Shown: positions 48,786 to 51,700 of the stretch, one piece after another
Numbering within the stretch: the stretch's first letter is position 1
Layout of the letters: the number at the start of each line of letters is the position of its first letter
Assembly (NCBI RefSeq): GCF_053078305.1
Contig: NZ_CP166879.1
DNA: 64,000 nt
Reading direction: 5' to 3' (one strand)
Made by a program: the position numbers

Positions 48786-51700
48786 TAATGATGTGGCGTA
48801 TGCTGATAAGACGCGCCAGCGTCGCATCAGGCAACCGGCTCGGGCGTTGGATGTCGGATGCGGCGTAACCGCCTTATCCAACCTATGGGGTGGAGCACTT
48901 CACAGCGGTGTAGGCCTGATAAGACGCGTCAGCGTCGCATCAGGCAACCGGCTCGGACGTTGGATGTCGGATGCGGCGTAACCGCCTTATCCGACCTACG
49001 GGGTGGAGCACTTCACAGCGGTGTAGGCCTGGTAAGACGCGTCAGCGTCGCATCAGGCAACCGGCTCGGGCGTTAGATGTCGGATGCGGCGTGACCGCCT
49101 TATCCGACCTACGGGGTGACGCACTTCACAGCAGTTTAGCGAACTACCGCGTTGTCAATTTTCTCTTCCGCCTTCCAGACGCGGTACTTCACATCTACAT
49201 TGTCTGGCGTATACACCACGATCGGCAGCTTGCTGTTGTAACGCAGCATTCCAGCATCGCCCAGATACGCGGTGACAAATTTCTTCTCTTTCTTGCCATC
49301 CGGGCAGGCCATCATCGTGGAAACCGGCGAGCTAACTTTATCAAAGACATAATAATCATAGCCCCAGCCTTCCAGCGTTTTGCTTTCCAGCTTCCCGCCG
49401 AGACGATGCAAATTGCAATCGACTTCCAGCGTCTGACCGATAAACAGTTCTACTTTCAGGGTAGATTCATCTTCTTGCGGGGTTAACTGAATCACCTGAC
49501 GCTTCATGCCTTTTTCAGCTTGTGGATAAGGCGCGATTTTTTCCAGTGGTTGGACGCTCTCTGCCGCCCAGGCGGAAGTGGTGGCGAAAGCGGCAAACAA
49601 TACTGCAGGTAGAATGGTCTTCATTTTTTGCTTTCCTTCTTCATTTATAGGTTTGCACCGATGATGTCGCTGAAGGTTAACATATTCATCAGATTTATTA
49701 ATTTGCTTTATGAATAACTTAAAGAATATTCAGACAATTTTACCTGCTCTTTTAGTGTTAAATTCTGATGAGAGAGCAAACCAGCAGAAATATCTCTGGT
49801 GAATTAATCGCTATATAAATATATTTATAACCATTTGAAATGTGAGCAAAAGCCCGTTTTTGCCACGCTTCCCGCCACTCTTTTGATCCTGCTACAGGTT
49901 TTACCTCGATCGGGGTATGCATCTTTGACACATCCTTTAATATCTTAGCGGCTATAAAAATGGCTTATTAATTATGCGGTTTATTTGGTCGCTCTCAATT
50001 TTCAGAGCGCGTTAATGATGGAAGGTCAATGTGAAGATTGATGCATCCCGTCGGGGCATACTCACTGGTCGCTGGCGCAAAGCCAGTAACGGTATCCGTC
50101 CGCCCTGGTCCGGTGATGAATCTCATTTTCTGACCCATTGCACCCGCTGCGACGCCTGTATTAATGCTTGTGAAAACAACATTCTGCAACGCGGCGCGGG
50201 CGGCTATCCGAGCGTTAATTTCAAAAATAACGAGTGCAGCTTCTGTTACGCCTGCGCGCAGGCTTGCCCCGAATCGCTATTTTCTCCGCGCCACACCAGG
50301 GCCTGGGATTTGCAGTTCACCATTGGGGACGCGTGCCTGGCGTATCAGTCAGTTGAATGCCGCCGCTGTCAGGATAGCTGTGAGCCAATGGCAATTATCT
50401 TTCGCCCGACGCTCTCCGGGATCTACCAGCCGCAACTTAATAGCCAACTTTGCAACGGATGTGGAGCATGTGCAGCCAGCTGTCCGGTATCAGCCATAAC
50501 TGCGGAGTATCTCCATGCACACTAACTGGCAAGTTTGCAGCCTGGTCGTGCAGGCCAAAAGCGAACGAATTTCAGACATCAGCACCCAACTGAACGCCTT
50601 TCCCGGCTGTGAAGTTGCTGTCAGCGACGCGCCGAGCGGTCAGTTGATTGTGGTGGTGGAAGCAGAAGACAGCGAAACGCTGATCCAAACCATTGAGTCA
50701 GTACGCAACGTAGAGGGCGTGCTGGCTGTGTCGCTGGTTTATCACCAGCAGGAAGAGCAAGGTGAGGAAACACCATGAAACTCAGTCGTCGTAGCTTTAT
50801 GAAAGCTAACGCCGTTGCGGCCGCTGCGGCGGCTGCCGGTCTCAGCGTGCCGGGCGTTGCCCGAGCCGTTGTTGGTCAGCAGGAAGCCATTAAATGGGAT
50901 AAAGCGCCGTGCCGTTTCTGCGGTACTGGTTGCGGCGTTCTGGTCGGAACGCAGCAGGGGCGTGTGGTGGCCTGTCAGGGCGACCCGGACGCACCGGTTA
51001 ACCGTGGCCTGAACTGCATTAAGGGCTATTTCCTGCCCAAGATCATGTACGGTAAAGACCGTTTGACGCAGCCGCTGCTGCGTATGAAAAACGGTAAATA
51101 TGACAAAGAAGGCGAATTTACCCCAATCACCTGGGATCAAGCCTTTGATGTGATGGAAGAGAAATTCAAAACCGCCCTGAAAGAAAAAGGGCCGGAATCG
51201 ATCGGTATGTTCGGTTCTGGTCAGTGGACTATCTGGGAAGGTTATGCCGCGTCCAAGCTGTTTAAAGCGGGCTTCCGTTCGAACAACATCGACCCGAACG
51301 CGCGTCACTGTATGGCGTCGGCAGTAGTTGGCTTTATGCGTACCTTTGGTATGGATGAGCCGATGGGCTGCTATGACGACATCGAGCAGGCTGACGCGTT
51401 TGTGCTGTGGGGCGCAAACATGGCGGAGATGCACCCGATCCTCTGGTCACGCATCACTAACCGTCGTCTCTCTAACCAGGACGTCACCGTGGCGGTGCTT
51501 TCAACCTACCAGCATCGTAGCTTCGAGCTGGCGGATAACGGCATCATCTTTACGCCGCAATCTGACCTGGTGATCCTGAACTACATCGCCAACTATATCA
51601 TTCAAAACAATGCGATAAATCAGGACTTCTTTAGCAAACACGTTAATCTGCGCAAAGGGGCGACGGACATCGGCTACGGTTTACGTCCGACCCATCCGCT

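What the first reader, a model, noticed from the sequence alone, without database searches (positions are those of the whole stretch)
48803..49130. Three tandem ~113-bp REP/BIME units in the mqo-eco intergenic region
An ordinary E. coli palindromic repeat cluster. It is noted mainly because it generates three overlapping spurious ORFs in the track and is a possible site of rearrangement.
Basis: seen in the sequence. Interest (0 to 1): 0.1.

Follow-up and report, generated by a model that had tools for sequence, protein, structure and literature searches.

The report
Known E. coli palindromic repeat cluster REP161
This is an ordinary, already well-studied cluster of palindromic repeats between the E. 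coli genes mqo and eco, here with three copies, and this strain has also lost a small hairpin next to it that almost all other strains keep.

Summary
Window 48798-49135 holds three head-to-tail 113-bp units (91-94% alike) that fill the gap between the convergent genes mqo and eco. Each unit is a Z2 palindromic unit, a 20-nt linker, a Y palindromic unit in the opposite orientation, and a 23-nt linker. That is a type-2 BIME, and this locus is REP161 of E. coli K-12.

The units match Rfam naRNA4 above threshold on the minus strand. They have the same architecture as REP325, with different linkers.

Among 120 sampled complete E. coli genomes the locus holds 1 to 7 units: 1 in 63%, 6 in 21%, 3 in 5%. 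One genome carries IS621 inserted at its known REP target.

In K-12 this locus is a published DNA gyrase cleavage cluster. By analogy with REP325, its hairpins probably cap or attenuate the mqo and eco transcripts.

The three plus-strand ORFs are artefacts of a period that is not a multiple of three.

One unreported detail: the window lacks 28 nt of an 18-bp hairpin just after the mqo stop codon, which one study's table lists as a bidirectional eco:mqo terminator. Only 2 of 5,426 genomes share that deletion.

Verdict: already known, low interest.

The parts
47142..48788 (+). mqo (malate:quinone oxidoreductase) coding sequence. Its stop codon TAA is at 48786-48788. This is the left flank of the array.
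   Evidence: 548-aa ORF. The homologous DNA is annotated as mqo in RefSeq genomes.
48789..48797 (+). Remnant left by a 28-nt deletion. The junction lies within GATGTG at 48790-48795. Other strains have CCACATCCGGCATGGTATGCCGGATGTG here, which completes an 18-bp perfect hairpin starting 4 nt after the mqo stop codon.
   Evidence: Comparison with K-12, TB06051, SCU-124 and Escherichia sp. E1V33. The junction is found in only 2 of 5,426 genomes. A supplementary table lists the hairpin as bidirectional terminator eco:mqo within REP161, dG -33.4.
48798..48832 (-). Z2 palindromic unit 1. It is degenerate at its tail: GTAT instead of GTAG, and one C of the stem foot is missing.
   Evidence: Sequence. 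Hairpin of -15.2 kcal/mol on either strand. Head motif at 48820-48832 on the - strand.
48833..48852 (.). Head-to-head (S-type) linker 1, 20 nt, AACCGGCTCGGGCGTTGGAT.
   Evidence: No IHF consensus is present.
48853..48886 (+). Y palindromic unit 1. Its tail is CTAT instead of CTAC, and the stem has one C.A mismatch.
48887..48909 (.). Tail-to-tail linker 1, 23 nt, GGGGTGGAGCACTTCACAGCGGT.
48910..48945 (-). Z2 palindromic unit 2, canonical. Positions 48910-48920 are the reverse complement of ATCAGGCCTAC, the natural IS621 target, and this is the only exact copy in the array.
   Evidence: The target sequence is from Durrant et al. 2024.
48946..48965 (.). Head-to-head linker 2, 20 nt.
48966..48999 (+). 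Y palindromic unit 2, canonical for this locus (GTCGGATGCGGCG...CCTTATCCGACCTAC).
49000..49022 (.). Tail-to-tail linker 2, 23 nt.
49023..49058 (-). Z2 palindromic unit 3. One A-to-G change (CTGGTAAG) breaks the exact IS621 target. It gives a G.U pair in the plus-strand RNA and a mismatch in the minus-strand RNA.
49059..49078 (.). Head-to-head linker 3, 20 nt.
49079..49112 (+). Y palindromic unit 3.
49113..49135 (.). Last tail-to-tail linker, 23 nt. It abuts the eco stop codon. Repeat homology runs a few bases further (TTAG against GTAG).
49136..49624 (-). eco (ecotin) coding sequence. Its stop codon is at 49136-49138. This is the right flank of the array. The first hairpin stem on its transcript starts 27 nt after the stop.
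   Evidence: 162-aa ORF. Annotated as eco in homologous DNA.
48801..49109 (-). Three matches to Rfam naRNA4 (RF02564), each covering one Y-linker-Z2 pair: 48801-48883 (60.5 bits), 48913-48996 (75.3 bits) and 49026-49109 (68.0 bits). The gathering score is 59.5.
   Evidence: On the + strand the same places score only 24-44 bits.
48778..49486 (+). Three overlapping mechanical ORFs (48778-48981, 48858-49076, 48971-49486), judged spurious.
   Evidence: No Pfam family above threshold. Not annotated in the RefSeq genomes inspected.

Best explanation
This is the strain's allele of REP161, a type-2 bacterial interspersed mosaic element (BIME-2). It consists of three tandem 113-bp units, each holding a Z2 and a Y palindromic unit in opposite orientation, separated by a 20-nt head-to-head linker and a 23-nt tail-to-tail linker. 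The array fills the whole gap between the convergent genes mqo and eco.

Shown here: the anatomy, the family assignment, the lack of any U-tract terminator or IHF site, the variation in unit number among strains, and the IS621 target.

Taken from published work on the K-12 allele: each unit is a site of DNA gyrase cleavage in vivo, largely independent of transcription.

Inferred by analogy with REP325 and other REPs: in RNA the six hairpins (-13 to -21 kcal/mol each, on either strand) sit at the 3' ends of both the mqo and the eco transcripts. There they would block 3'-to-5' exonucleases and partly stop read-through, so that each gene is insulated from the other.

Unit number changes by unequal recombination or replication slippage between near-identical units. 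The REP-associated transposase may also contribute.
For: Repeat structure.

Y and Z2 identity:
- Rfam naRNA4 model (Y-linker-Z2) is matched at 60.5-75.3 bits against a gathering score of 59.5.
- Side-by-side comparison with REP325 of K-12 shows the same two palindromic units and the same alternation, with period 100 instead of 113.
- The Z unit differs by 0-1 bases from the 37-nt REP query quoted in Durrant 2024.

Definition of BIME-2 (z2 + y, tandem copies, short linker, variable number between strains): Ton-Hoang 2012.

No IHF consensus and no run of four T or A in the gap. No terminator-like site in the gap.

Hairpins: 97% of stem cells pair across 23 distinct units from 9 genomes, against 23-42% when the partners are slid.

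Unit number ranges from 1 to 7. A K-12 derivative (g83) carries units 1, 2, 5 and 6 of K-12, so it lacks two units, which fits recombination between the identical units 2 and 4.

IS621 is inserted at GTAG|GCCTGAT in one genome.

Published gyrase data for the K-12 locus: 11 cleavage sites with ciprofloxacin, 7 with rifampicin plus ciprofloxacin, and '6 cuts' in Espeli & Boccard 1997 for 6 units (main text).

REP325 acts as a partly Rho-dependent attenuator and mRNA stabiliser, and convergent gene pairs with a REP are more highly expressed (Harris 2026 preprint).

The same array is present at the same locus in Escherichia sp. E1V33, about 93% identical.
Against: Nothing about function was measured in this strain. 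The gyrase and transcript roles are carried over from K-12.

Covariation in the stems is weak and not beyond the shuffle control (46 of 500 shuffles reach the observed score), because the stems hardly vary. Conservation of pairing is therefore not independent evidence of selection.

The Harris 2026 preprint found no genome-wide difference in mRNA half-life for genes with terminal REPs, so the stabiliser role depends on context.

About 63% of sampled E. coli genomes manage with a single unit, so the number of units is probably close to neutral.
Confidence: 0.93

Rival explanations
1. The array is a set of three genes for naRNA4-like nucleoid-associated small RNAs. These would be transcribed on the minus strand (the eco sense), cut into RNAs of about 84 nt with two hairpins, bound by HU, and would help condense the chromosome.
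For: There are three Rfam naRNA4 matches above the gathering score, all on the minus strand. The architecture is the same as that of REP325, the source of naRNA4. Qian et al. 2015 proposed that other sequences homologous to REP325 could serve the same role.
Against: No promoter-like site was found in 48500-49800, so any such RNA would have to come from eco read-through. The linker between the hairpins is 7 nt longer than in the model and unrelated in sequence. The 2026 preprint, which includes the senior author of the original work, reports only moderate HU affinity, no stable ternary complex, and no effect of deleting or overexpressing REP325 on nucleoid size. The Rfam hit mainly reflects the Y and Z2 palindromes, which hundreds of E. 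coli REPs share.
Confidence: 0.08
2. The array is a selfish or nearly neutral REPIN-type repeat. It would be amplified in place by the REP-associated tyrosine transposase or by slippage, and tolerated because it lies between two gene ends. It would have no host function that depends on unit number.
For: Unit number varies from 1 to 7, most genomes hold one unit, and closely related laboratory strains differ. The consensus RAYT cleavage motifs TGCC|TGAT and GGCC|TAC and the 5' GTAG are present (motifs from Ton-Hoang 2012). The linker of this locus was found only at this locus, in one other Escherichia species, which fits amplification in place.
Against: This reading is compatible with the best explanation rather than opposed to it. 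At least one unit was present in every genome whose gap was read, and in the other sampled genomes the gap length fits at least one unit. The K-12 array is a strong gyrase cleavage cluster that does not depend on transcription.
Confidence: 0.3
3. The ORFs that span the repeats (67, 72 and 171 aa on the + strand) encode real small proteins.
For: They are open reading frames with ATG or TTG starts.
Against: They have no Pfam family above threshold. The same ATG inside the Y unit starts two of them in different absolute frames, because 113 is not a multiple of 3. The third runs antisense through eco. Unit number varies from 1 to 7, so the 'proteins' would change length and frame between strains. 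No CDS is annotated in this gap in the nine RefSeq genomes examined.
Confidence: 0.01
4. The array is a classical intrinsic (Rho-independent) bidirectional terminator.
For: It consists of G+C-rich hairpins between convergent genes. In K-12 a hairpin within REP161 is listed among bidirectional terminators.
Against: No terminator-like site (hairpin plus T-run) lies in the gap on either strand, and there is no run of four T or A at all. The hairpin listed in K-12 is the one that is deleted in this window.
Confidence: 0.05

Closest known systems
REP161 of E. coli K-12 (the eco-mqo BIME-2)
   Same: It occupies the same locus between the same two genes and has the same 113-bp unit with the same linkers. 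The window's units are 91-98% identical to K-12 units. The name REP161 and the eco:mqo assignment come. The locus is listed as a BIME-2 with gyrase cleavage sites.
   Different: The window has three units where K-12 has six. It also lacks 28 nt of the 18-bp hairpin that K-12 and nearly all other E. coli carry between the mqo stop codon and the first unit.
REP325 / naRNA4 (yjdM-yjdN BIME-2; Rfam RF02564)
   Same: It has the same Y and Z2 palindromic units, the same alternating orientation and a tandem array. The units match the covariance model above its gathering score.
   Different: The period is 113 rather than 100. The head-to-head linker is 20 nt rather than 13, the tail-to-tail linker is 23 nt rather than 17, and the linker sequences are unrelated. 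The foot of the Y stem is U-A here and C-G in REP325. This array lies between convergent genes, whereas REP325 lies inside an operon.
BIME-1 / RIB-RIP elements (Y + Z1 with an IHF site)
   Same: They are built from REP palindromes in inverted pairs at gene ends.
   Different: BIME-1 occurs as a single copy with a long, conserved linker that carries an IHF site. Here the linker is short, no IHF consensus is present, the second unit is of the long Z2 type, and the element is tandemly repeated.
IS621 (IS110 family, bridge-RNA recombinase) target sites in REPs
   Same: The Z2 units carry the natural 11-nt target ATCAGGCCTAC, with one exact copy in the window at 48910-48920 on the - strand. One E. 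coli genome has IS621 inserted exactly there in this array.
   Different: No IS is present in the window. This is a property of the target, not of the array's own function.

Membership tests
BIME-2 | Built from Y-type and Z2-type palindromic units | tested here: met
   Three Y and three Z2 units were located. They align with the Y and Z2 units of REP325 and score 60.5-75.3 bits on the Y-linker-Z2 covariance model against a threshold of 59.5. The Z unit is of the long form, 0-1 mismatch from GCCTGATGCGACGCTGGCGCGTCTTATCAGGCCTAC.
BIME-2 | Successive units in alternating orientation (head-to-head, then tail-to-tail) | tested here: met
   Z2 heads lie on the - strand and Y heads on the + strand, strictly alternating. 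GTAG/CTAC tails face each other across the 23-nt linker.
BIME-2 | Short head-to-head linker without an IHF site (unlike the L linker of BIME-1) | tested here: met
   The linker is 20 nt and WATCAANNNNTTR has no match in 48789-49135 on either strand. Whether this 20-nt linker is the canonical 'S' motif of Bachellier et al. could not be checked, because that paper is not held. Ton-Hoang 2012 states that BIME-2 linkers vary in length and sequence.
BIME-2 | Tandem multiple copies whose number varies between strains at one locus | tested here: met
   There are three copies here. Other genomes carry 1, 3, 4, 5, 6 or 7, by sequence or by gap length.
BIME-2 | [quoted passage not shown] | tested here: met
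   The array lies between the stop codons of the convergent genes mqo and eco.
BIME-2 | Bound and cleaved by DNA gyrase in vivo | not testable with these tools
   Reported for the K-12 allele: 11, 7, 2 and 5 cleavage sites under four conditions, and '6 cuts' in Espeli & Boccard 1997.
naRNA4 (Rfam RF02564) | Sequence and structure match at or above the curated gathering score | tested here: met
   Scores of 75.3, 68.0 and 60.5 bits against 59.5 on the - strand, with a 7-nt insertion in the linker.
naRNA4 (Rfam RF02564) | Expressed as a discrete small RNA that binds HU | not testable with these tools
   No promoter-like site was found nearby. The role itself is disputed for REP325.
Intrinsic (Rho-independent) terminator | G+C-rich hairpin followed directly by a U-tract | tested here: not met
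   No such site lies in the gap. No run of four T or A occurs in 48789-49135.
REPIN / substrate of the REP-associated tyrosine transposase (RAYT) | Inverted REP pair with a 5' GTAG and CC|T cleavage motifs | tested here: met
   GTAG is present at four of the six units. TGCCTGAT occurs three times and GGCCTAC twice. The motifs are from Ton-Hoang 2012.
REPIN / substrate of the REP-associated tyrosine transposase (RAYT) | A RAYT gene in the same genome that acts on it | not tested
   Only 64 kb of the genome is available, and the window was not searched for a RAYT gene.

The most novel reading that the evidence does not exclude
The rare 28-nt deletion removes the 18-bp hairpin that one study's table lists as the bidirectional eco:mqo terminator. 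That would leave the BIME-2 array as the only 3'-end structure for both genes. The first hairpin stem would then lie 13 nt after the mqo stop codon, or directly after it in the predicted alternative fold. That is within the 15-nt range in which REPs are reported to stall terminating ribosomes. On this reading the strain would be a natural mutant with altered Mqo output or altered convergent read-through, and it would separate the role of the REP array from that of the adjacent terminator hairpin.
Probability: 0.15. Interest if true: 0.3.

Novelty: already known. Interest (0 to 1): 0.1.

Why it matters
It matters little in itself. REP/BIME arrays are among the longest-known repeats of E. coli, and this locus has been used in gyrase cleavage studies since 1997.

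Practical value:
- The ORFs across the array should be masked in annotation.
- The locus is a convenient length-polymorphic marker, with 1 to 7 units.
- It holds a natural landing site for the IS621 bridge recombinase.
- Unit number here can be mis-assembled from short reads.

The 28-nt hairpin deletion is shared by only 2 of 5,426 complete genomes and has arisen on arrays of 1, 3 and 4 units. It is a tidy natural example of palindrome loss between 6-nt direct repeats. It would allow a clean test of whether the hairpin or the REP array sets the 3' ends of mqo and eco.

Tried and rejected
1. Protein-coding reading of the ORFs. Pfam gave nothing above threshold (best E = 0.086, 12.8 bits against a cut-off of 23). 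Rejected.

2. Intrinsic terminators or promoters in the gap. None was found.

3. IHF site (BIME-1). None was found.

4. Replication Risk Sequences (222-bp G+C-rich repeats flanking the Ter domain). Considered because of their similar size and chromosomal region. The paper places them near dusC and lysO, not at this locus. Rejected.

5. Covariation test of the hairpins on 23 distinct units. Pairing is kept (97%), but covariation is not beyond the shuffles (46/500) because the stems barely vary. Uninformative. Transitions give G.U on the plus strand in 10 cells and on the minus strand in 4. The units are related by duplication, so no strand preference can be claimed.

6. Scan of one genome per species (100,044 species) for the locus-specific head-to-head linker. 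The only hit was Escherichia sp. E1V33, at the same locus. The E. coli representative did not match the exact pattern, so the scan says little about spread within E. coli.

7. A 121-nt query across the deletion could not separate deleted from undeleted genomes, because split matches are joined. A 46-nt junction query resolved it.

8. Liang, Rudd & Deutscher 2015 (REPs within 15 nt of a stop codon) is not held. The rule is cited from its summary in the RepRanger paper.

9. Two literature calls failed on a term that was too short.

10. The RefSeq record of MG1655 as served here lists no repeat features. The REP161 name therefore comes from papers.
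Full report
**Observation.** The sequence at 48789-49135 is the complete gap between two convergent genes. The 548-aa ORF at 47142-48788 (+) and the 162-aa ORF at 49136-49624 (-) lie on DNA that is 97-100% identical to regions annotated as mqo and eco in thousands of RefSeq E. 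coli genomes. Tandem Repeats Finder reports one array at 48803-49139: period 113, 3.0 copies, 94% matches, no indels. The repeat finder gives three copies in register.

**Anatomy.** Each 113-bp unit reads, on the + strand, as follows.
- GTAG + GCCTGATAAGACGCG-TCAG-CGTCGCATCAGGC. This is a Z2 palindromic unit lying on the minus strand.
- A 20-nt head-to-head linker, AACCGGCTCGGRCGTTRGAT.
- GTCGGATGCGGCG-TAAC-CGCCTTATCCGAC + CTAC. This is a Y palindromic unit on the plus strand.
- A 23-nt tail-to-tail linker, GGGGTGGAGCACTTCACAGCGGT.

The six palindromic units lie at 48798-48832, 48853-48886, 48910-48945, 48966-48999, 49023-49058 and 49079-49112. The leftmost Z2 and the leftmost Y are slightly degenerate: GTAT and CTAT replace GTAG and CTAC, and Y-1 has one stem mismatch.

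Each unit folds on its own into a hairpin of -13 to -21 kcal/mol on either strand. The whole gap folds better than all 100 shuffles on both strands (z = -4.2 and -3.7). The gap is 62% G+C against 52% for the window, has no run of four T or A, and has no IHF consensus. The consensus scan finds no promoter-like site in 48500-49800 and no terminator-like site in the gap.

**Family.** A scan against Rfam gives three matches to naRNA4 (RF02564) above its gathering score, all on the minus strand: 75.3, 68.0 and 60.5 bits against 59.5. The plus strand scores only 24-44 bits.

naRNA4 is the Y-linker-Z2 repeat of REP325 of K-12. I fetched REP325 and found a 100-bp period with the same two palindromes in the same alternating order. 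Its linkers differ: 13 nt and 17 nt, unrelated in sequence to those here.

Ton-Hoang et al. 2012 define BIME-2 as z2 + y units in multiple tandem copies with a short linker. They note that linkers differ between loci, that copies at one locus are well conserved, and that the number at a locus varies between strains. All of these features are met here.

The K-12 allele is called REP161. The table of Sutormin et al. 2019 lists it as a BIME-2, 'eco>-<mqo'.

**Comparison with other genomes.** The gap is 347 nt here. It is 714 nt in K-12 (six units), 375 nt in strain TB06051 (three units), 149 nt in SCU-124 (one unit) and 829 nt in AR Bank #0346 (seven units).

To sample the species, I searched with 600 nt of mqo joined to 600 nt of eco and read the gap length from the span of the match. 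I did this twice with different flanks, taking 60 evenly spaced genomes each time. The 120 rows break down as follows.

| Units | Rows |
|---|---|
| 1 | 76 |
| 2 | 0 |
| 3 | 6 |
| 4 | 4 |
| 5 | 5 |
| 6 | 25 |
| 7 | 2 |
| Locus split | 2 (the same genome both times) |

In 48 of 5,421 genomes the two flanks are not joined within 1.1 kb.

Laboratory K-12 derivatives differ from one another: MG1655 has six units and others have five or four. Strain g83 carries units 1, 2, 5 and 6 of K-12, so it lacks two units. That is what recombination between the identical units 2 and 4 would give.

The window's three units are identical to those of TB06051, its nearest relative in the collection. The array, with three units and the adjacent hairpin, is also present at the same locus in Escherichia sp. 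E1V33 at about 93% identity. That was the only hit of the locus-specific linker in a scan of one genome per species.

**Insertion sequence.** The genome in which the locus is split (strain 2017-02-2CC) has IS621 inserted in the Z2 unit of the fourth repeat, at GTAG|GCCTGAT. This is the natural IS621 target, ATCAGGCCTAC, reported to lie in REP elements (Durrant et al. 2024). The window holds one exact copy of this target, at 48910-48920 on the minus strand.

K-12, TB06051, SCU-124, four further E. coli genomes and Escherichia sp. E1V33 all have an 18-bp perfect hairpin between the mqo stop codon and the first unit. In K-12 it reads ATACGCCACATCCGGCAT-GGT-ATGCCGGATGTGGCGTAT. The window lacks 28 nt of it.

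In TB06051 the missing piece is bounded by the direct repeat GATGTG, as expected for loss of a palindrome by slipped mispairing. This mechanism is inferred from general knowledge.

A 46-nt query across the junction cannot seed on undeleted genomes. It matches only 2 of 5,426 genomes. One of them has four units and the other has one, so the deletion has probably arisen more than once.

The supplementary table of the Harris et al. 2026 preprint lists exactly this hairpin as a bidirectional terminator for eco:mqo within REP161. Its coordinates are K-12 2305063-2305108 and its dG is -33.4. The table is drawn from an earlier sequencing study of bidirectional terminators.

Without the hairpin, the predicted fold of the mqo 3' end drops from about -48 to -24.5 kcal/mol for the same landmarks. 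The first REP stem then starts 13 nt after the stop codon. REPs within 15 nt of a stop codon are reported to stall ribosomes (Liang et al. 2015, as summarised). However, in normal strains the terminator hairpin already starts 4 nt after the stop, so the net effect cannot be predicted. I cannot exclude an assembly error in the window at this palindrome.

**How it most likely works.** The locus-specific evidence is published and concerns K-12.
- The 654-bp eco-mqo BIME-2 holds 11 gyrase cleavage sites with ciprofloxacin.
- It holds 7 when transcription is blocked with rifampicin, 2 with microcin B17 and 5 with oxolinic acid.
- Espeli & Boccard 1997 saw six cuts for six units.
- Gyrase prefers the Y units, and the signal at BIME-2s rises rather than falls with rifampicin.

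I therefore take each unit to be one strong gyrase site that does not depend on transcription, and I expect three such sites here. A position between convergent genes, where positive supercoils from both sides meet, makes sense for this role. That last point is inference.

At the RNA level neither gene has a U-tract terminator, so both transcripts must enter the array. For REP325, Harris et al. 2026 show partial Rho-dependent attenuation and protection of the upstream mRNA. Genome-wide, they find higher expression of convergent pairs that have a REP between them. I carry this over by analogy.

The nucleoid-condensing naRNA/HU model is what gives the Rfam family its name. That preprint contradicts it for REP325 itself, so I rank it low.

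**ORFs.** The three plus-strand ORFs (48778-48981, 48858-49076, 48971-49486) lie in three absolute frames. Two of them start at the same ATG of the Y unit in successive repeats, because 113 = 3 x 37 + 2. They have no Pfam family above threshold and are not annotated in any RefSeq genome I looked at. They are spurious.

**Verdict.** This is a correct but unremarkable finding: a three-unit allele of a named and experimentally studied BIME-2. Three units is a minority state (about 5% of sampled genomes). The adjacent 28-nt hairpin deletion is rare (2 of 5,426). Both are strain-level polymorphisms of a known element.

Noticed in passing
window 48789-48797 (compare L002 990-1030, L001 1120-1160): The window lacks 28 nt of an 18-bp perfect hairpin that lies right after the mqo stop codon in nearly all E. 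coli. A published supplementary table lists that hairpin as a bidirectional eco:mqo terminator. The deletion junction occurs in only 2 of 5,426 complete genomes, on arrays of 1 and 4 units.
   Followed up: yes
L005 4233-6000 (NZ_AP027764.1, strain 2017-02-2CC): IS621, the IS110-family bridge-RNA recombinase element, is inserted in the fourth Z2 unit of this same array, at its known target ATCAGGCCTAC. The window has one exact copy of that target at 48910-48920 (-).
   Followed up: yes
L001, L007 and rows H76, H79, H80, H81: Laboratory K-12 derivatives carry 4, 5 or 6 units at this locus. Strain g83 lacks two K-12 units, consistent with recombination between the identical units 2 and 4. Either the array changes on laboratory time scales or some assemblies collapse it.
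   Followed up: partly
the 120 sampled E. coli genomes (rows H41-H100 and H143-H202): No genome with two units turned up among the 120 sampled. The distribution has two peaks, at 1 and at 6 units, and probably follows phylogroup (B2 and O157 strains have 1, K-12-like strains have 6).
   Followed up: no
window 40720-40813 (-): MicF antisense RNA, a full-length Rfam match at 118.7 bits. This is ordinary.
   Followed up: no
window 10538-12892 (+): A 784-aa ORF with collagen-like Gly-X-Y repeats (seen in the DNA at 11650-11740), probably a prophage tail-fibre gene. The only REP-head-like match outside the array (11746) lies inside it and is a chance match.
   Followed up: partly
alignment A1, columns 61/88 and 62/87 (window Y units): The foot of the Y stem is U-A at this locus but C-G in REP325. 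Within this locus, one K-12 unit has switched the next pair from C-G to U-A, and several units, including window unit 1, show the C.A intermediate. These are isolated compensatory changes, too few for statistics.
   Followed up: partly
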